IMG/VR virus record: IMGVR_UViG_3300027881_000017
Span: 1 to 56,115 of that record
Length of the DNA stretch: 56,115 nucleotides
Reading direction: 5' to 3' (one strand)
DNA from: a virus
Taxonomy: Duplodnaviria > Caudoviricetes
Position numbers and translations under genes: made by a program
The notes under the pieces: model-generated
What the model was told of the DNA's origin: nothing
Database searches by the model: none
Seen by the model: only the letters and a program-made list of their open reading frames with translations
Shown here: positions 17,206 through 51,730 of the stretch, piece by piece
Position numbering within the stretch: position 1 is the stretch's first letter
Layout of the letters: the number at the start of each line of letters is the position of its first letter

Positions 17206-17236
17206 AAAAAAACCCCGACCATTTCTGGCCGAGGTT
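17206..17236 (-). terminator. Intrinsic terminator between convergent late and early transcripts
   Basis: Minus strand AACCUCGGCCA-GAAA-UGGUCGGGGUU followed by a U-tract; G-U pairs favour the minus strand. Confidence 0.8.
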
Positions 17237-17537: not shown

Positions 17538-17690
17538 TTGATTTCCTTTCCATTTGTGAATAATAATTTTCTCCCACGGCTGTAAAACCTGCACTCAATC
17601 AAAGTCGACTCCGCCCAATGTCCCGCCAAGGTCGGGGTCGCTTGTGGCTATCGGTTTTCCTCTTTGATCTGTGGTGCTAATGAAAAGTAA

Positions 17691-18503
17691 TTATTCTGAT
17701 CCCATTAATTGTTGGCTGGTTTGAATCGAAGCGTCAATTGCTCTCCTGCGGTTTCGATTCTCCATTACGTGGGTTGTAAACCAAGTTACCATATTGTAGA
17801 AATCCCACATGGTTTTAAGTTCATCGTTTTTTAGTTTCTGCTGGTAGATATATCCAATTTTTTTGCTATACATTTTGCCGAGTTCCAATGAACGTAAAAC
17901 CACAGCCGCTTGAACTTTGTCAAAATCAAGCTTGGTTAGTTCTTCCCAGGAATTTGCAAGATCATTGTAGAATATTTCCTTGGCCATTTCAAAATTAACA
18001 ATAAATATATCCAGTAGATCTTCTTCACTTCCAACGTGGCTGTCACGCCATTCATACAATTTTTCTTTGGTCATTAAACCGTTCAAGCAGATCTTGCGCA
18101 ATCCGCCAATGCTCATTCCTTTGCTAATACCGTCACCATATCCGTTCCAAAGATCGCACATCAGTTCTATGTCATCTGTCATGCTACCATATCCAGTTTC
18201 GTATTCGCCGACGTTGGTTTTAATGTCTGGGAAACGATAATTTGCCCAGAACCGGCTTCCAGTTAAGTTGCATCCTGCTCCAGTTCGTGAAAATTTCACG
18301 TCGGTATCGTTCAGATATTTTTCAAACGTATTTACGAGAACATCATTCTGGACGATTTTGTACCGGTTAGATACGACCGATACCAGATTGCCCGTATTTG
18401 CGTTGAAAATAGCCTGTCTGGGGATCAAAACACCTGATTCGACTGCTTGTACTTTCTCAACCTTTAACGGGAAAAACGGATCAATCAGTTTTTCTTTGCT
18501 CAT
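17691..18503 (-). CDS. DUF932-family protein
   Basis: VVSNRYKIVQN, NGYGDG, RKICLNGL, HVG, WDFYNMVT motifs. Confidence 0.8.
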   Translation of the reverse strand: MSKEKLIDPFFPLKVEKVQAVESGVLIPRQAIFNANTGNLVSVVSNRYKIVQNDVLVNTFEKYLNDTDVKFSRTGAGCNLTGSRFWANYRFPDIKTNVGEYETGYGSMTDDIELMCDLWNGYGDGISKGMSIGGLRKICLNGLMTKEKLYEWRDSHVGSEEDLLDIFIVNFEMAKEIFYNDLANSWEELTKLDFDKVQAAVVLRSLELGKMYSKKIGYIYQQKLKNDELKTMWDFYNMVTWFTTHVMENRNRRRAIDASIQTSQQLMGSE

Positions 18504-18530
18504 GATTTACTCCTTTTGTTTGTGGTTTGC

Positions 18531-18571
18531 AGCACGGGCTGGAGTTGAACCAGCCCTGCGACCATCGTGCT
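18531..18571 (-). ncRNA. tRNA-minihelix-like element (acceptor-like stem plus T-arm)
   Basis: AGCACG/CGUGCU stem stacked on GGCUGG/CCAGCC with canonical T-loop UUCAACU. Confidence 0.5.
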
Positions 18572-18692
18572 TGTTACCTCGAGTTGATACTGTAAAGAAC
18601 TTCGCCATTTTCTTTTTCTTTTTGTACATCGTATTTAGTCCGCATATTATGAAGATGGCGAGTAATGGTTCTGGACAATGCTTCTTTATCCT

Positions 18693-18765
18693 GGCATGAG
18701 ATGTATATGATTCATGCTTCGCCCGCAAGTGGCTAAATGCCCTATTTTAAGCCGCCACTTCGGCT
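18693..18765 (-). ncRNA. Pistol-like ribozyme
   Basis: P1 AGCCG/CGGCU, loop AAGUGG pairing with CCACUU, linker UAAAAUAG, P2 GGCA/UGCC, UUUAG loop, GCG; P3 and cleavage dinucleotide are atypical. Confidence 0.55.
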
Positions 18766-19303
18766 ATGTGTAATCACCGTTTAACAATGTTTCGCTGATT
18801 TCATCTGCGTTGAATTTTTGTCCTTTGTAATATACAGTATAAGTTCCATCTAATCTTACAAGAATGCCCATCGTCCTCTTCTCTTCTGTTTTAAATTTCC
18901 ACGCTACTTGCTTTCCTTTGCTTAATGCAGGATTTGGGTCTACGCCAAAAATTTCTTTAATTTTTTCTCCAGCAGATCTTAACAACTCGTCTTTTTTTAA
19001 CAATAAATCTTTACGAGTTGACGATTTTTTCTTGTTCGGTTTTGTTACTGCTTCTTTTTGGTGTTTTTGCAACTCTGAAACAAGATCGTCTTTTTTGACG
19101 TTGGCTAAATTGCCGGAAGTATAACCGCCCATAAAAGGCGTTAAAGCACGATTTAATTCCTGTTTAGTCATTGTTTCTAATTGCTGCGTGTTCATCTTGT
19201 TCTCCTTTTGTTTGGTTTTTGTTAAAATTGGAACTCTTGTAGCAATAGAATCATTGCCATAATAATCCTTCATTGCTCTTTCAACCGCTTGGCTAAAAGT
19301 CAT
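18764..19303 (-). CDS. Hypothetical early protein (strong internal start at 19195)
   Basis: RBS-like sequences before both ATG 19303 and ATG 19195. Confidence 0.65.
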   Translation of the reverse strand: MTFSQAVERAMKDYYGNDSIATRVPILTKTKQKENKMNTQQLETMTKQELNRALTPFMGGYTSGNLANVKKDDLVSELQKHQKEAVTKPNKKKSSTRKDLLLKKDELLRSAGEKIKEIFGVDPNPALSKGKQVAWKFKTEEKRTMGILVRLDGTYTVYYKGQKFNADEISETLLNGDYT

Positions 19304-19366
19304 TGTTTTTCCTTTCTGTTTTAAATGAATAGCGGCTGGCGGGATGCGAAATCCCGCTTACGCTTT

Positions 19367-19729
19367 TCAGCCGTTCACAAATAAATTGCTATCAACTTTG
19401 CCACTGACGTCTACCCGTTTGAATTTTGACCGCTCTTTGATATATTTTTTAAACTCTTCTACATCCATATCGGTTTTGTTAGCATAAGTAATACAGGCTT
19501 CGATATCTTCTTTGGTTAATTTGATTGACATCAAGTACATTATTAACCAAGGATCTGCAAGCGAGTCAGCGCGAAGATGATCCTCACCAACCTTTAACGT
19601 GCCTTTAACCGTTACGGTAAATTCTACCGGATATTGCCCAGGTTTTACTTTTGCCCTGGCTGCTTTGTAGTCACCGTTAACTGCATTCTTTAATGCAATG
19701 ATTTCTACTGGTTTTAATTTCTTAACCAT
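19367..19729 (-). CDS. Hypothetical early protein
   Basis: aggag RBS within the repeated leader motif. Confidence 0.7.
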   Translation of the reverse strand: MVKKLKPVEIIALKNAVNGDYKAARAKVKPGQYPVEFTVTVKGTLKVGEDHLRADSLADPWLIMYLMSIKLTKEDIEACITYANKTDMDVEEFKKYIKERSKFKRVDVSGKVDSNLFVNG

Positions 19730-19747
19730 TACTTTCTCCTTTTTGGT

Positions 19748-20014
19748 TTAATACCATTTAATTTTTCCATCTAAATAATAGCCAACTAAATCCCAATCCT
19801 CATCGTAGAACGATGATTCAATTTTGCCATGAGTACCAATGTCCCACATTCTGTTTTTAAATTTTGTAAAAGCGCAATCTCTGAAAAATATTTGAAGATT
19901 ATATCTTTGACGCAGTTTAAAAACGATGATATTGGGATCATTAAAGAGCTTTCTTATAAGTTTTAATCGGCTCGGGGTAATATGGAGAGGTCTATCTCTT
20001 TTTTTAATTTTCAT
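19748..20014 (-). CDS. Hypothetical early protein
   Basis: Likely start ATG 20014; fills the operon. Confidence 0.55.
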   Translation of the reverse strand: MKIKKRDRPLHITPSRLKLIRKLFNDPNIIVFKLRQRYNLQIFFRDCAFTKFKNRMWDIGTHGKIESSFYDEDWDLVGYYLDGKIKWY

Positions 20015-20024
20015 GTTAATCTCT

Positions 20025-20279
20025 TTATTTACCTGGCTCTGGTTCCCAGAAAAAACTATCAATGATTTTTTCTTCGTGTTCTGTAACCATCAATCGAATT
20101 ATTGCCTTTATTGTTTCATGGGGAAACAATGCCTCAATTTCTAAATCAACCATCGGCTCATTAACAATATCTCTTATTTTGTCTAACTGATCATAATAAG
20201 ACATGGCATAAAATTCATCCCACTTGGCATTAATCTCATCGTCCAAATGTTCTTTTTCACCCTGTAATATATTACTCAT
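20025..20279 (-). CDS. Hypothetical acidic early protein
   Basis: aaggag RBS; directly downstream of the hammerhead. Confidence 0.7.
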   Translation of the reverse strand: MSNILQGEKEHLDDEINAKWDEFYAMSYYDQLDKIRDIVNEPMVDLEIEALFPHETIKAIIRLMVTEHEEKIIDSFFWEPEPGK

Positions 20280-20301
20280 TACTTTCTCCTTTGTGGTTTT
20301 T

Positions 20302-20355
20302 GTCTAAGACCCGCCCGAAGGCAGGTTTCGGATATTAAATCCTCATCGGTTAGAC
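20302..20355 (-). ncRNA. Type I hammerhead ribozyme (CCGAUGA core variant)
   Basis: GUCUAA-CCGAUGA-GGAU(UUAAU)AUCC-GAAA-CCUGCC(UUCG)GGCGGG-UC-UUAGAC: all three stems, core and GUC triplet present in an intergenic gap. Confidence 0.9.
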
Positions 20356-20356
20356 T

Positions 20357-20779
20357 TTATTCTTCTTCCATAAATTCAACTAAATCTTCAACATCAATTA
20401 TAAACTGTATAGTTGCTTTTGCTTCCGCAACTTCACGAGCAACCCTTACTGGTGAACTTGAACTATGATAATGACCAAATATTCCGTGAGCATTATTAAA
20501 GTGACGTTTTTTCCAAATCTTAGCGTTGACAACTAACCATATTTTAAATTCAGAAAGACGAGATGTTTTCTGAAACTCATCATAAATCATCAACCAATTT
20601 CTTAATGCTGTTTCTGCTTCCATTGTTGCATCGCCATATGCTTCAAGTTGCATTGCAATAGTAAGAAATTCACAGTCTTTAACTTTGTCTTGAAATTCCT
20701 GAATAGTCTTTTCTGCTTTTGAAATGTGGCGATTAATTAATTTTGCTGCGTTGTTTTTGCTTTCTCTTGATTGTACCAT
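20357..20779 (-). CDS. Hypothetical protein, first gene of the early operon
   Basis: aaggag RBS within the repeated leader motif. Confidence 0.7.
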   Translation of the reverse strand: MVQSRESKNNAAKLINRHISKAEKTIQEFQDKVKDCEFLTIAMQLEAYGDATMEAETALRNWLMIYDEFQKTSRLSEFKIWLVVNAKIWKKRHFNNAHGIFGHYHSSSSPVRVAREVAEAKATIQFIIDVEDLVEFMEEE

Positions 20780-20811
20780 TTTGTTTCTCCTTTGTGGTTT
20801 GTGTAAAATAG

Positions 20812-21148
20812 CCGCCAGTCAGGTCTTAAAACCTGCAACCTAAAATACTTGTCATCGATAAAATCGATCGGCTTGATTTTGGTATCGCTGGCGAAAAAGG
20901 AGTCGGGTTGTTTTAAGGATTCCTCCAGGAAATCGGCCTATCATCCGATTATGTCGTCCTGATGTCTATCTTTGATTTCACCTGCCTTATCACGCATAGT
21001 ACCAATGTTTCATCAAAAGAGATTACTACTGGTTTTTGGAAGTGTTTCAGGCTTATGTCTGCTCTATTCATTTTTTCCCGAGCCAGGGATGTGGAGGAGT
21101 TTGGGGTCAGGTGCTCCCGTTGAACCTGTTTGGTGTTGTTCACCACCC
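20812..21148 (-). ncRNA. Structured leader RNA of about 340 nt
   Basis: Many complementary segments between a sigma70-like promoter and the first RBS. Confidence 0.5.
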
Positions 21149-21154
21149 AATAAG

Positions 21155-21183
21155 AATATACACAATAAATAGACAGAAGTAAA
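21155..21183 (-). promoter_or_regulatory. Sigma70-like early promoter
   Basis: TTTACT-17 bp-TATATT, TGTG just before the -10 box, A/T tract upstream. Confidence 0.7.
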
Positions 21184-21253
21184 CAAAAAAAATTATTTTT
21201 TTTTATCTACTTTCATTTACCTTGCTTAAGTAGAAGAAAAATAATAGTTTAGA

Positions 21254-49782: not shown

Positions 49783-51730
49783 GGCGGTAATCGCAATTGA
49801 CAAAAGTACGACAGACAAAACCAAAGAAGAAGCTCACAAGGTTTTAGGCAATAAATATACTCAATGGTATGAGTTTGACTTTGAGGACGATTTTTCTAAA
49901 GCAAGAAACGAGTATATTGCCAAAGCCAACCATGAATGGGTTCTTATTTTGGATGGTCATGAATATATTGACCAGTCTTGCCTGCCTTTCCTTAAAGAAA
50001 TAAAAAAGAATCCGCCCAAGAATGTTCAAATTTTTGATTTCAACATTTATGAACCCAGGGATGGAAGATATTTTCAGCAGCCTCGCCTTTTCAAATCTGC
50101 AATAAGATACGAGCTGCCGATTCATAATATGATACGGCAAAGGGATTATCGGCTTTCTATGCCCCAAGTCACTATTTGGCACAATCAACCTGATGATAGA
50201 TATAAGGCAAGACGTGAGCAGCGTCGAAAAATGAATTTAAAAGGGCTAACAGAAAAAGCAAACAAGGGCGATGTTCGCAGCATGTATTATTTAGCTGATG
50301 CTTTTTATGAATTAGGCGATTTGAAAAATGCAGCACATTGGTTTAAGAAGTATATTCCGAAGAGTGATTTTCCACACGAGAGATATACAGCCAGAATCAG
50401 GATGGCTGTAATCACTGAAAGATTAGGCGACGATGAACAGGCTGAGAAATACGCCATGTATTGTTTCGACGATGAAGTGAATTTAAATGAGCATTTGATA
50501 TTTCTCGGAGATTTAAAGTATAAACAAAAAAATTATTATCGGGCAATTTATTTTTACAGATTGGCCGCAGTAATAAAGATCCCTGAAATGTTTTTGATAG
50601 TTAGCAAAGCGTGCTATACTTGGATTCCTTGGTACAAATTAGCGATGGCATACGGGATGATGAATGATTTAGATGGTGTTAGAGAATGCATCATCAAAGG
50701 AAAACAACTTGCGCCGGAGCGGGATGAGTTTTTTGAATTAGAGGACCAGATTCAAAAAACAATAAAAGTGCATAATCTTAAAAAGAAAGGCAAGGTCTAT
50801 ATAGTTGCATCTTTGCCTCGATTTATTGAGCCGATCTTTAAAGATTTTGTAGAGAAGGGTGATTATTATGTCAGGTTTGATCAACAATTTAATCCTTATA
50901 ATGCTGAAAATGCCGATGTAATATTCTGCGAGTGGGCAGATCACAATGCGATAGCAGTTAGTAATTTTAATAGTAAGGCCAAAAAAATAATTCGGATTCA
51001 TGCCTATGAAGTGTTCAGTGATTTTATTGATAAAATTAATTTTCAAAATATTGACGCTCTTGTTTTTGTAGCCAATCACATTAAAAAGTATTTTATGAAA
51101 AGGGCACACGGGATAGATGACATCAAGACCACTGTAATAAGTAATGGGGTGGATCTTAATAAATTTACCATACCATCTAAAAAAAAGCCCAACAATAAAA
51201 TAGCGTATGCCGGATATATTTCTAATAAAAAAGGCGCAGTGTTACTTTTGCACACAGTGCATAATTTTCCAGAATATGAGTTTCATGTCGCTGGGACATT
51301 CCAGGAGCCAGATGTTCAGGAGTTGTTTGAGCGAAGAAAATCAGAGAATTTATTTTTATATCCATGGCAAGAGGATTTGAATAGTTTCTTCGCTGATAAG
51401 ACTTACATAATTAATACTTCGCCTCGGGAAGGCTGCCCGGTTGCAGTTCTTGAAGGAATGGCTGCCGGTTTAATGCCATTAGTGTTTCGTTGGGACGGGG
51501 TTGATGATATGTTTTCATGGGGCTGGTCAAGTTTAAAAGGACTACAAGAATTGTTATATCGTTCTGTAGATTTCAAGGCAAACAGAGCGCATATAGAACT
51601 TAAATTTGATTTCAAGGAAAAGAAAACACAGATTAAAAATTTAATCGATTCACATATAAAGGAGAAAGATGATGTCAGAGAAAATGATCAAACTGCAGTT
51701 CAGGCCGTCAAAGAGCCATCGCACTCATAA
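49697..51730 (+). CDS. Glycosyltransferase fusion: GT2, TPR repeats and GT4-like domain
   Basis: DDFSKARN, LILDGHE; TPR-like helices (YYLADAFYELG); NGVDL, REGCPVAVLEGMAAG. Confidence 0.88.
   Translation: MKITLVMVLKDEARTIRKAIESVLPIVDEAVIAIDKSTTDKTKEEAHKVLGNKYTQWYEFDFEDDFSKARNEYIAKANHEWVLILDGHEYIDQSCLPFLKEIKKNPPKNVQIFDFNIYEPRDGRYFQQPRLFKSAIRYELPIHNMIRQRDYRLSMPQVTIWHNQPDDRYKARREQRRKMNLKGLTEKANKGDVRSMYYLADAFYELGDLKNAAHWFKKYIPKSDFPHERYTARIRMAVITERLGDDEQAEKYAMYCFDDEVNLNEHLIFLGDLKYKQKNYYRAIYFYRLAAVIKIPEMFLIVSKACYTWIPWYKLAMAYGMMNDLDGVRECIIKGKQLAPERDEFFELEDQIQKTIKVHNLKKKGKVYIVASLPRFIEPIFKDFVEKGDYYVRFDQQFNPYNAENADVIFCEWADHNAIAVSNFNSKAKKIIRIHAYEVFSDFIDKINFQNIDALVFVANHIKKYFMKRAHGIDDIKTTVISNGVDLNKFTIPSKKKPNNKIAYAGYISNKKGAVLLLHTVHNFPEYEFHVAGTFQEPDVQELFERRKSENLFLYPWQEDLNSFFADKTYIINTSPREGCPVAVLEGMAAGLMPLVFRWDGVDDMFSWGWSSLKGLQELLYRSVDFKANRAHIELKFDFKEKKTQIKNLIDSHIKEKDDVRENDQTAVQAVKEPSHS

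What the first reader, a model, noticed from the sequence alone, without database searches (positions are those of the whole stretch)
17591..21148. Early operon punctuated by ribozymes and tRNA-like processing elements
Seen: in one transcript of about 4 kb from the promoter at 21155-21183, most sizeable intergenic gaps hold a distinct structured RNA. In order: long leader (20812-21148), hammerhead (20302-20355), bulged coaxial hairpin (19333-19373), pistol-like fold (18693-18765), T-loop minihelix (18531-18571) and a multi-stem element (17591-17677). Three begin at or overlap the upstream stop codon, and several lie just ahead of a conserved RBS leader. Inference: an RNA-encoded system that cuts the polycistronic early mRNA into separate units, possibly releasing small RNAs. 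This would parallel RNase III processing of T7 early RNA, but by self-cleavage and tRNA mimicry. I know of no description of this combination.
Basis: partly seen in the sequence, partly recalled or inferred. Interest (0 to 1): 0.87.

Follow-up and report, generated by a model that had tools for sequence, protein, structure and literature searches.

The report
tRNA-like and ribozyme marks between phage genes
Between the genes of one operon of a marine phage lie a small tRNA-like RNA fold that proves to be widespread in phages, a hammerhead-like ribozyme and the dead stump of a pistol ribozyme, which suggests that phages mark gene boundaries for RNA cutting in several interchangeable ways.

Summary
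Of the six elements, one is strongly supported, one is plausible, one is a relic and three have no support.

- **T-loop minihelix (18531-18571, minus strand):** it belongs to a conserved family that Rfam 15 did not match. I found 44 distinct copies in viral contigs, 99.7% of cells paired, with heavy covariation. Copies usually start just after a stop codon. One phage operon carries 13 T-arm motifs of this kind on its coding strand. Mycobacterium phage Sheen has an unannotated copy.
- **Hammerhead (20302-20355):** every core position fits except U4, which is C. Rfam models do not score it. A second C4 copy and three canonical copies of the same compact design lie at gene boundaries in other phages, one operon also holding a minihelix.
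- **Pistol-like fold:** this is the 5' two-thirds of a pistol. P3, the cleavage junction and the 3' strand of P2 are missing. A relative has an intact pistol (47.9 bits) at the junction where this phage and another relative carry the minihelix.
- **Leader, bulged hairpin and multi-stem element:** no conservation or family match.

Ribozymes flanking phage genes are already described. The tRNA-like family seems not to be. Cleavage is inferred, not shown.

The parts
18529..18573 (-). tRNA-like minihelix. Paired core 18571-18531: a 5-bp outer (acceptor-like) stem, a 10-nt linker with a 2-bp mini D-hairpin around UGG, a 7-bp inner stem, the T-loop UUCAACU, then N and C at the 3' side. It lies 2 nt after the TAA of the relic ORF and 27 nt before the DUF932 start codon.
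   Evidence: Model R2 gives 66.3 bits, E 2e-17, and this is the only copy in the window. Family covariation is shown. The homologous copy is at L004:3127-3167.
20302..20355 (-). Compact type I hammerhead-like motif with C at core position 4 (20348). The predicted scissile bond lies between C20308 and U20307. Cleavage there would leave a 28-nt leader carrying the conserved RBS ahead of the ATG at 20279.
   Evidence: Direct reading, the descriptor hit and the MFE fold. Rfam gives no hit.
18715..18765 (-). 3'-truncated pistol relic. P1 is 18765-18750, the A-rich linker 18749-18742, the 5' strand of P2 18741-18738, the 3' strand of the pseudoknot 18733-18727, and GCG 18726-18724. P3, the 2-nt cleavage junction and the 3' strand of P2 are missing.
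   Evidence: Rfam Pistol 20 bits, below the gathering score of 34.5. An intact pistol lies at L013:796-862 (47.9 bits). No substrate strand was found in the operon.
18574..18711 (-). Relic of the C-terminal part of the wHTH gene, of the L004 type: 45 codons and a stop, with no ATG at its head. It lies directly after the pistol relic.
   Evidence: BLASTP gives 25 of 39 identical residues to the last 39 residues of the L004 protein, E 2e-18.
19333..19373 (-). Bulged hairpin: 6 bp, a 10-nt 5' bulge, then 7 bp with a UUCGC loop. It overlaps the UGA of the 120-aa gene. Function unsupported.
   Evidence: Fold z -3.15. There is no counterpart at the same junction in L013. R2 gives 7.2 bits, E 1.3.
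17591..17677 (-). Multi-stem fold in the 153-nt gap after the DUF932 gene. Unsupported.
   Evidence: z -1.81, or -2.43 with flanks. No match in the loci held at that point and no Rfam match.
20780..21154 (-). Long gap ahead of the first gene that holds no supported gene (the 'leader'). It is not notably structured.
   Evidence: z -0.98. No Rfam match. The 65-aa ORF inside it has no homologue. Only its last 24 nt, the RBS leader, recur elsewhere.
17691..18503 (-). DUF932 gene (270 aa), used as the anchor to find relatives.
   Evidence: Pfam PF06067, 37.5 bits against a cut-off of 23. 16 proteins at E<=0.001, the query's own included.
18764..19303 (-). 179-aa gene. Its N-terminal part is shared with L004 and L013, and its C-terminal part is mosaic. 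The UAG stop overlaps P1 of the pistol relic.
   Evidence: Alignment A3.
20283..20298 (-). Conserved RBS leader AACCACAAAGGAGAAA. It also occurs at 20784-20799 and, with one mismatch, at 19733-19748.
   Evidence: 5 matches with up to 3 mismatches, against 0.91 expected. repeat family D3. The same leader stands ahead of the DUF932 gene in L013.
17211..17236 (-). Intrinsic-terminator-like hairpin with a U tract, at the end of the operon.

Best explanation
This stretch is the distal part of a phage operon in which some gene boundaries carry interchangeable RNA-cutting modules, in different states of repair.

(a) A tRNA 'top-half' mimic sits at 18531-18571. It combines an acceptor-like stem stacked on a T-arm with a tiny D-loop mimic. 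It belongs to a widespread family found in phages and actinobacteria. I propose that host tRNA-processing enzymes read it: RNase P at its 5' edge, RNase Z or a related enzyme after the nucleotide that follows its 3' strand. That would separate the upstream cistron from the DUF932 cistron and could release a roughly 45-nt RNA.

(b) A compact type I hammerhead sits at 20302-20355 with a C4 core variant. If active, it cuts between 20308 and 20307 and gives the next gene a 28-nt 5'-OH leader.

(c) The pistol-like fold is the dead 5' stump of a true pistol, left by recombination that also left a stranded gene fragment.

The leader, the bulged hairpin and the multi-stem fold are not shown to be part of any system.

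Shown here: the structures, their conservation, their positions and their interchange. Inferred: every cleavage.
For: **Minihelix family**
- Two pattern scans of IMG/VR and models R1 and R2 gave 52 matches at E<=1e-4 in 43 of 44 sources. 44 of them are distinct.
- 99.7% of cells are paired. The covariation score is 0.703 against 0.171 in shuffles (0 of 500 reach it), and slid controls stay at or below 0.125 (one search agrees).
- The linker pair at columns 9 and 19 covaries: GC 34, AU 7, UA 1.
- The C two nucleotides after the stem is present in 43 of 44 copies, although it lay outside the search pattern.
- G-U pairs occur, which fits RNA better than DNA.

**Context**
- 42 of 48 strong matches start within -7 to +26 nt of the stop of a same-strand ORF of at least 40 aa.
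- Copies cluster in one region of each phage record.
- L029 has 13 T-arm motif matches on the coding strand within 4.5 kb, against 1 on the other strand.

**Interchange with ribozymes**
- L013 has a pistol at 47.9 bits between the wHTH and DUF932 genes, where the window and L004 carry the minihelix.
- L027 has three canonical compact hammerheads and one minihelix at gene boundaries of one operon, with stop codons inside stem I or inside the core.

**Hammerhead**
- All core positions other than position 4 match the consensus given in PMC7151607 (section read).
- A second C4 copy, L077:2739-2797, lies between a stop codon and the next start codon.
- Across 5 copies, stems I and II are 100% paired and 6 of 11 pairs carry compensatory changes (0 of 500 shuffles).

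**Precedents in print**
- RNase P cuts acceptor/T-stem/T-loop hairpins and phage RNAs (PMC11143913, passages).
- Plant mitochondrial t-elements with the GGTTCRANYCC motif mark mRNA ends through RNase P and RNase Z (PMC1920247, passages).
- The U4C hammerhead variant keeps enough activity in vivo for viroid infectivity (PMC3088659, passage).
Against: - No RNA data exist. No RNA run holds this phage, so no cleavage has been seen.
- The window has a single minihelix and a single hammerhead-like motif, so 'punctuated' overstates this operon.
- Rfam hammerhead models give nothing at E<=10 for the window or for L077. U4C is reported to lower activity considerably in vitro.
- The window's hammerhead shows no obvious stem I / stem II tertiary contact.
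- At genome scale the descriptor hit alone is only about 1 in 100.
- My pattern scans fixed part of the linker and the T-loop, so conservation of those letters is partly built in. The alignments were fitted to the model.
- The strong sequence conservation of the linker and loop exceeds what RNase P is known to need. It could instead mark a protein-binding site or another function.
- A terminating ribosome would unwind an element that starts 0 to 12 nt after the stop codon.
- The tRNA models do not recognise the element.
Confidence: 0.55

Rival explanations
1. The minihelix is not cut. It acts in cis as a folded element at the end of a cistron. It could be a 3' or 5' stabiliser, a ribosome- or protein-binding site that couples termination to re-initiation at the next gene, or a binding site for a phage protein.
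For: It sits 0 to 12 nt after stop codons, and the next start codon usually follows within 15 to 50 nt. Linker and loop nucleotides are more conserved than a mere RNase P substrate needs. In many copies a second hairpin follows (flanking sequences printed).
Against: It occupies the same junction as a self-cleaving pistol in a relative. It shares an operon with three hammerheads at like positions, which points to cutting as the common function. Its 12-bp stack with a T-loop matches the known minimal substrate of RNase P.
Confidence: 0.2
2. The main product is the excised small tRNA-like RNA, acting in trans. After CCA addition it could serve as a decoy or sponge for host factors that bind the tRNA acceptor end or elbow, such as defence toxins or modification enzymes. 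On this reading, operon cutting is a by-product.
For: Some operons carry many copies (13 T-arm motifs in L029; three copies each in Streptomyces loci L088, L096 and L110), which would give a high dose of small RNA. M. smegmatis YrlA, a tRNA-like domain, is cut by RNase P and receives CCA (PMC4201824, passages). The conserved N-C after the stem sits where the discriminator and C74 would sit.
Against: No anticodon arm is present, so it cannot be a decoy for anticodon nucleases. No small RNA has been observed. Its strict placement at cistron boundaries and its interchange with ribozymes fit a cis role better.
Confidence: 0.12
3. The minihelix is itself a new class of small self-cleaving ribozyme. 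Its resemblance to tRNA is either ancestral or coincidental.
For: It shares genomic niches with hammerhead and pistol ribozymes. That kind of association led to the discovery of twister and pistol (PMC6765202; PMC4604425). About 20 of its unpaired nucleotides are nearly invariant.
Against: The invariant letters are those of a tRNA T-arm and D-loop (GG, UUCRANU). That is explained more simply by mimicry of a substrate for tRNA enzymes. Real tRNAs also score 24 to 33 bits with the model.
Confidence: 0.06
4. The elements in this window are decaying relics or chance hairpins with no present function. On this reading the hammerhead is dead because of C4, and the minihelix is a remnant of a tRNA gene or an attP-like piece.
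For: The pistol is certainly a relic. Rfam hammerhead models fail on the window's motif. Real phage tRNAs share the same 3' end sequence as the minihelix.
Against: The minihelix shows compensatory changes in 9 of its 14 pairs across 44 distinct copies. It is strand- and position-specific and multi-copy. That excludes a neutral remnant or a DNA site. The C4 hammerhead recurs with fully covarying stems in an unrelated contig, at the same kind of site.
Confidence: 0.07

Closest known systems
Clustered hammerhead ribozymes flanking genes in prophages and phages (Perreault et al. 2011, PMC3088659; passages read)
   Same: Type I hammerheads lie in phage intergenic regions and flank single genes. That paper already proposes that long phage transcripts are cut into gene-length mRNAs. 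Core variants occur in phage intergenic regions, and U4C is noted as weak in vitro but viable in vivo.
   Different: The window has one copy only, with C4, a very compact design and no evident tertiary contact. It fails the Rfam models. It is accompanied by a tRNA-like element, which did not come up in the passages I read.
Pistol ribozyme and the ribozyme-associated gene neighbourhoods (Harris et al. 2015, PMC4604425; review PMC6765202)
   Same: The P1 hairpin, the pseudoknot between the P1 loop and the P2/P3 junction, the A-rich linker and GCG are all present. The phage context fits. Different ribozyme classes are known to share neighbourhoods.
   Different: P3, the strictly 2-nt cleavage junction and the 3' strand of P2 are absent. 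The score is 20 bits against a gathering score of 34.5. It is a stump, not a member.
Plant mitochondrial t-elements and the mitochondrial tRNA punctuation model (Forner et al. 2007, PMC1920247)
   Same: Partial tRNA mimics carry the GGTTCRANYCC T-arm motif and sit at mRNA ends. They are read by RNase P and RNase Z and can be released as small RNAs that receive CCA.
   Different: Here the setting is phage and bacterial DNA. The architecture is much smaller and uniform: a 5-bp plus 7-bp stack, a 2-bp D mimic and no anticodon arm. Copies follow stop codons directly, sometimes one per gene. Processing has not been tested.
RNase P minimal substrates and non-tRNA substrates: acceptor/T-stem/T-loop hairpins, phage M3 RNA, P1/P7 C4 RNA, operon mRNAs (review PMC11143913); M. 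smegmatis YrlA (PMC4201824)
   Same: The element has a 12-bp coaxial stack capped by a T-loop, which is what RNase P measures. tRNA-like domains in bacteria and phages are known to be cut by RNase P and to receive CCA.
   Different: None of the passages I read describes a repeated intergenic family placed after stop codons. YrlA is larger and is linked to Ro60.
RNase III processing sites of T7 early mRNA
   Same: A polycistronic early phage RNA is cut between cistrons at structured intergenic sites by a host enzyme.
   Different: The T7 sites are long imperfect double-stranded hairpins read by RNase III. Here the folds are a hammerhead and a tRNA mimic.

Membership tests
Hammerhead ribozyme, type I (Rfam RF00163) | Core nucleotides C3, G5, A6, G8, A9, G12, A13 and A14 | tested here: met
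   Direct reading (CCGAUGA ... GAAA) and the descriptor hit. The consensus is as written in PMC7151607.
Hammerhead ribozyme, type I (Rfam RF00163) | U at core position 4 | tested here: not met
   C at 20348. The same change is present in L077.
Hammerhead ribozyme, type I (Rfam RF00163) | A15.1-U16.1 pair, H17, a G10.1-C11.1 pair, and three stems around the core | tested here: met
   The MFE fold is the three-way junction, with stems of 6, 4 and 7 bp. Across 5 copies stems I and II are 100% paired, and 6 of 11 pairs are compensatory.
Hammerhead ribozyme, type I (Rfam RF00163) | Score at or above the family's gathering score (34 bits) | tested here: not met
   No match at E<=10 (type II model). 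For comparison, two of the three canonical compact copies in L027's record reach only 29.3 and 24.8 bits.
Hammerhead ribozyme, type I (Rfam RF00163) | Self-cleavage after H17 | not testable with these tools
   Needs in vitro transcription or mapping of RNA ends.
Pistol ribozyme (Rfam RF02679) | P1 hairpin whose loop forms a 6-7 bp pseudoknot with the P2/P3 junction, plus the A-rich linker and GCG | tested here: met
   Model alignments. P1 is AGCCG/CGGCU in the window and ACUCG/CGAGU in L013. The pseudoknot is AAGUGG/CCACUU in the window and UCUGAG/CUUAGA in L013 (direct reading).
Pistol ribozyme (Rfam RF02679) | P3 stem, a 2-nt junction holding the scissile bond, and the 3' strand of P2 | tested here: not met
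   The model alignment deletes P3. No fitting strand lies on the minus strand between 16824 and 24665. Homology to the L004 gene starts just after the stump.
Pistol ribozyme (Rfam RF02679) | Score at or above the gathering score (34.5 bits) | tested here: not met
   20 bits. The L013 copy scores 47.9 bits.
tRNA (Rfam RF00005; ARAGORN) | Cloverleaf with an anticodon arm, recognised by tRNA models | tested here: not met
   ARAGORN finds 0 genes in the window. No tRNA match at E<=10 on 18515-18600. There is no room for an anticodon arm, because the linker is only 10 nt.
Phage tRNA-like minihelix family (model R2, built here) | 5-bp outer stem, R-A-N-G-G-U-Y linker hairpin, G-Y-A, a 7-bp GGGNNGG stem, the T-loop UUCRAYU, and N-C after the stem | tested here: met
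   66.3 bits, E 2e-17. Column counts are and covariation. The window's copy was one of the two seeds of R1, so its match is partly by construction. The other 42 sources are independent.
t-element-like or RNase P/Z processing signal | T-arm motif GGTTCRANYCC on a 12-bp acceptor/T stack | tested here: met
   GGTTCAACTCC, with 5 bp plus 7 bp. The motif is as written in PMC1920247.
t-element-like or RNase P/Z processing signal | RNA ends at the edges of the element, made by RNase P and RNase Z | not testable with these tools
   No RNA run holds this phage.

The most novel reading that the evidence does not exclude
Phages, and mobile DNA of actinobacteria and other bacteria, carry an undescribed family of miniature tRNA 'top-half' mimics placed right after stop codons. 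These mimics hijack host tRNA-processing enzymes to cut operon RNA gene by gene. At the same junctions they are functionally interchangeable with hammerhead and pistol ribozymes. That would mean RNA cutting at cistron boundaries is the selected function of the long-unexplained self-cleaving ribozymes of phages.
Probability: 0.45. Interest if true: 0.85.

Novelty: new variant of a known kind. Interest (0 to 1): 0.7.

Why it matters
The biological role of most bacterial and phage self-cleaving ribozymes is still open (PMC6765202).

In this phage group a protein-dependent tRNA mimic and self-cleaving ribozymes occupy the same gene boundaries. One homologous junction carries a pistol in one phage and the minihelix in two others. 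One operon in another phage holds three hammerheads and a minihelix. This points to cutting at cistron boundaries as the shared function, and it offers an independent way to test that idea.

The minihelix family itself is absent from Rfam 15. It is unannotated in the one GenBank record I checked. It is present in a cultured phage of a tractable host (Mycobacterium phage Sheen on M. smegmatis) and in Streptomyces genomes, so experiments are within reach.

It could also serve as a compact natural part for insulating genes in synthetic operons.

Tried and rejected
- **RNA evidence:** no RNA holder is listed for this phage. Laying the three DNA runs gave near-identical contigs: one other letter, in one low-depth contig inside the DUF932 gene, and none in any element, so nothing usable for covariation.
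- **Relatives of the hammerhead's neighbour:** the 140-aa gene is an orphan.
- **Wider relatives:**
  - blastn of the whole 4.5 kb against the phage collection gave no match.
  - The portal protein gave one distant locus.
  - DUF932 gave none in genome contigs.
- **Ribozymes in the rest of the two related records:** none at gathering score. There were none in 15 minihelix-bearing loci either. That scan also missed the L027 hammerheads, so it is a weak negative.
- **Trans or distant substrate strand for the pistol stump:** none in the operon.
- **Stop-codon readthrough plus frameshift to join the 179-aa ORF to the relic:** considered and dropped as needing two recoding events with no support.
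- **Linker GGUC pairing with T-loop GACU:** the variants give mismatches (window, L060, L061, L041), so I rejected it in favour of the 2-bp mini-hairpin, which does covary.
- **Bulged hairpin as a diverged minihelix:** rejected (7.2 bits).
- **Minihelix as attP or a tRNA gene remnant:** rejected by covariation, strand bias and copy number.
- **Leader as a gene:** its 65-aa ORF has no homologue. Leader as a structured RNA: z -0.98.
- **Not used:** structure, complex and atlas tools, because no protein question was decisive.
- **Supplements closed:** the hammerhead alignments of PMC3088659 and the tables of 10,006 candidate viral RNAs of PMC10690425 may already list C4 hammerheads or this minihelix. 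I could not see them.

Full report
**Setting.** The window is a complete 56,115-bp virus record with direct terminal repeats. Near-identical copies stand in three seawater DNA runs. The finding lies at the end of the leftward gene block, downstream of replication and nucleotide-metabolism genes. On the minus strand the ORFs run 140 aa, 84 aa, 88 aa, 120 aa, 179 aa, 270 aa (DUF932; Pfam 37.5 bits against a cut-off of 23), 30 aa and 68 aa. A terminator-like hairpin follows at 17236-17211. Several genes are preceded by the leader AACCACAAAGGAGAAA. The proposed promoter is a 9-of-12 match, in a region with no more such matches than shuffles give.

**Rfam.** The whole window has no match at gathering score. 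In E-value mode the only relevant match is Pistol at 18715-18765, with 20 bits against a gathering score of 34.5 (E 0.006 per genome). No hammerhead model matches at E<=10, even on 101 nt alone.

**Relatives.** Single proteins found nothing, and the 140-aa gene next to the hammerhead is an orphan. An alignment of 16 DUF932 proteins retrieved these loci:
- L004, 58% identity
- L013, 67% identity
- L005 and L014, 44% identity
- L015 and L016

**The pistol-like fold is a stump.**
- L013 has an intact pistol (47.9 bits) at 796-862, between the stop of the homologue of the 179-aa gene and the DUF932 start codon.
- Laid on the same Rfam model, the window's element keeps P1, the A-rich linker, the 5' strand of P2, the 3' strand of the pseudoknot and GCG. 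P1 and the pseudoknot differ from L013 by compensatory changes.
- The model alignment deletes P3. No P3 3' strand, 2-nt junction or P2 3' strand exists anywhere in the operon.
- Right after the stump, 45 codons without a start codon match the C-terminus of the L004 protein: 25 of 39 residues identical, E 2e-18. The 179-aa ORF itself ends in a different C-terminal stretch.
- The simplest reading is a recombination scar. A cassette consisting of a C-terminal end plus a pistol was set in front of the original gene end, and the 3' third of the pistol was lost.
- Harris et al. state that the length of the cleavage junction is strictly conserved (PMC4604425). That feature is missing here, so I do not file this element as a pistol.

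**The T-loop minihelix is real and widespread.**
- In L004 the same 41-nt element sits at the same junction. It differs at six positions: two in the linker, two in variable T-loop positions, and two forming a compensatory U-A to C-G change.
- A pattern scan for its 3' half found it in two further viral contigs, L027 and L029. ARAGORN sees no tRNA there. The other seven matches were real phage tRNAs.
- A second pattern, which left both strands of the outer stem free, gave 43 stretches.
- Model R1, built from the two seed copies, matched 43 of 44 sources at E<=1e-4: 52 matches, 44 of them distinct.
- On that alignment 99.7% of cells pair. The covariation score is 0.703 against 0.171 in shuffles (0 of 500), slid controls stay at or below 0.125, and all five outer-stem pairs vary on both sides (one search agrees on the wider set).
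- A further pair inside the linker covaries (GC 34, AU 7, UA 1) next to an invariant A-U. Together they make a 2-bp hairpin around NGG.
- The consensus reads: Y-A, 5 bp, R-A-(U/A)-G-G-U-Y, G-Y-A, GGGNNGG, UUCGACU, CCNNCCC, 5 bp, N, C. The final C is present in 43 of 44 copies although it lay outside the pattern.
- This is a tRNA top half: a 12-bp acceptor/T stack, a canonical T-loop closed by G-C, and a GG where the D-loop GG would meet the T-loop. That last comparison is my inference from general tRNA knowledge.
- Rfam 15 does not cover it. One search scanned 15 loci that hold more than 20 copies, and only three real tRNAs were reported.

**Context of the family.**
- 42 of 48 strong matches begin within -7 to +26 nt of the stop of a same-strand ORF. 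The next ORF usually starts 15 to 50 nt later. The window's copy counts among the six misses, because its upstream ORF is the relic without a start codon. It lies 2 nt after that relic's TAA.
- Copies are confined to one region of each phage record and are often multiple:
  - L071 has three.
  - L049 has three at E<=1e-4 and four T-arm motifs.
  - L029 has 13 T-arm motifs on the coding strand within 4.5 kb against 1 on the other strand, roughly one per small gene.
- The L029 copies are a variant with a 7-bp acceptor stem and a small D-like hairpin.
- In bacterial genomes, 26 matches of at least 49.8 bits lie in 18 loci: Streptomyces, other Actinomycetota, Catenuloplanes, a planctomycete and an Anaeroplasma MAG. 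None of them is an ARAGORN tRNA. Three Streptomyces loci carry three copies each, 300 to 370 nt apart. Real tRNAs (Sec, Glu, Gly and others) score only 24 to 33 bits.
- Mycobacterium phage Sheen has a copy at 51141-51188, between genes 85 and 84. Nothing is annotated there.

**The hammerhead.**
- Read directly, 20302-20355 has every core position of the consensus except U4, which is C. It also has G10.1-C11.1, A15.1-U16.1 and C17. The MFE fold is the expected junction.
- Alone, this is about a 1-in-100 event per genome under my loose descriptor.
- A pattern scan for the C4 form gave four stretches, about what chance predicts. One of them, L077:2739-2797, folds into the full motif with different stem sequences. 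It sits between a UAG stop and the next ATG.
- Running the descriptor over 960,330 bases of fetched loci found three canonical copies of the same compact design: stem I of 6 bp, stem II of 4 bp with a 5-nt loop, and stem III of 5 to 8 bp.
- All three lie in L027, on the same strand and in the same small-gene operon as its minihelix. Stop codons sit inside stem I or inside the core.
- Across the five copies, stems I and II are 100% paired and 6 of 11 pairs are compensatory (0 of 500 shuffles).
- Rfam's type I model gives two of the three canonical L027 copies only 29.3 and 24.8 bits, below its cut-off of 34. It gives nothing for either C4 copy. The missing Rfam match is therefore weak evidence against the fold, but it does reflect the core change.
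- Perreault et al. report that U4C lowers activity considerably in vitro yet still supports viroid infectivity. They also describe core variants in phage intergenic regions.
- I put the chance that the window's copy cleaves at a useful rate at roughly one in two.

**The other three elements.**
- The leader folds no better than shuffles. It has no Rfam match and no relatives, and its ORF has no homologue.
- The bulged hairpin is stable but is missing in L013, where the two genes abut. It is not a minihelix.
- The multi-stem fold is unremarkable and unconserved in what I could compare.

**Mechanism.**
- What is shown: the folds, their conservation, their position at cistron ends, and their interchange. 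A pistol in L013 stands where the window and L004 have a minihelix, and hammerheads and a minihelix share one operon in L027.
- What is inferred: that the common function is cutting the operon RNA at cistron boundaries, by self-cleavage for the ribozymes and by host RNase P and/or RNase Z for the minihelix.
- The inference rests on three precedents:
  - RNase P cuts acceptor/T-stem/T-loop hairpins and several phage RNAs.
  - M. smegmatis YrlA is cut by RNase P and receives CCA.
  - Plant mitochondrial t-elements with the same T-arm motif define mRNA ends.
- Rival readings are a cis-acting stabiliser or coupling element, an excised decoy RNA, a new self-cleaving class, and relics. They are weighed in their own section.

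**Novelty.**
- Ribozymes flanking phage genes, and the processing hypothesis, are in print.
- For a tRNA-like intergenic family in phages I found nothing in six of my ten full-text searches.
- A 2023 survey lists thousands of unnamed candidate viral RNAs whose tables I could not open.
- I therefore rate this a new variant of a known kind: tRNA punctuation and t-elements, moved to phages in a minimal form and paired with ribozymes.

Noticed in passing
L029:2500-7000 (+): 13 T-arm motifs (GGTTCRANTCC-like) lie on the coding strand within 4.5 kb, spaced 290 to 480 nt apart, about one after each small ORF. Most are followed by CCCAUG, a short hairpin and GUAAACC. ARAGORN calls no tRNA here. These copies have a 7-bp acceptor-like stem and a small D-like hairpin but no anticodon arm.
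   Followed up: partly
L027:10311-11448 (-) and L027:9029-9073 (-): Three canonical compact type I hammerheads share the same stem I (GGUUAA/UUAACC). The stop codons of the upstream genes lie inside stem I or inside the CUGA core. The next start codons follow 8 to 19 nt after the motif. One tRNA-like minihelix lies further down the same operon.
   Followed up: yes
L088, L096, L110 (Streptomyces genome contigs): Each locus has three minihelix copies of 61 to 69 bits on one strand, 300 to 370 nt apart. I did not determine whether these are prophages or other mobile DNA.
   Followed up: no
L074 (Mycobacterium phage Sheen, NC_028914.1 51141-51188): An unannotated minihelix copy (62.4 bits) lies between genes 85 and 84 of a cultured phage of M. 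smegmatis. It is the only copy in that genome.
   Followed up: partly
window 19195-19221 (-): Inside the 179-aa ORF there is an in-frame RBS-like leader (AAACCAAACAAAAGGAGAACAAG) followed by ATG. It is also present in L013 and L004. The gene may therefore yield a second, shorter product, or it may be a fusion of two ORFs.
   Followed up: no
L083, L087, L103, L105 and other Nitrospirota loci: Model R2 cross-hits bacterial tRNA-Sec genes at about 27 bits, and tRNA-Glu and tRNA-Gly genes at 24 to 33 bits. These scores are well separated from the minihelices, which reach at least 49.8 bits.
   Followed up: yes
L025, L028, L030, L031, L033: Phage tRNA-Thr(CGU) genes share the T-arm and the 3' acceptor strand sequence (…CCCGTGCT) with the window's minihelix. 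This hints that the family arose from such a tRNA by loss of the D and anticodon arms.
   Followed up: no
window 21177-21212: An A/U-only inverted repeat (16-nt arms, 88% complementary, 4 nt apart) lies between the upstream gene and the proposed promoter. Its meaning is unknown.
   Followed up: no
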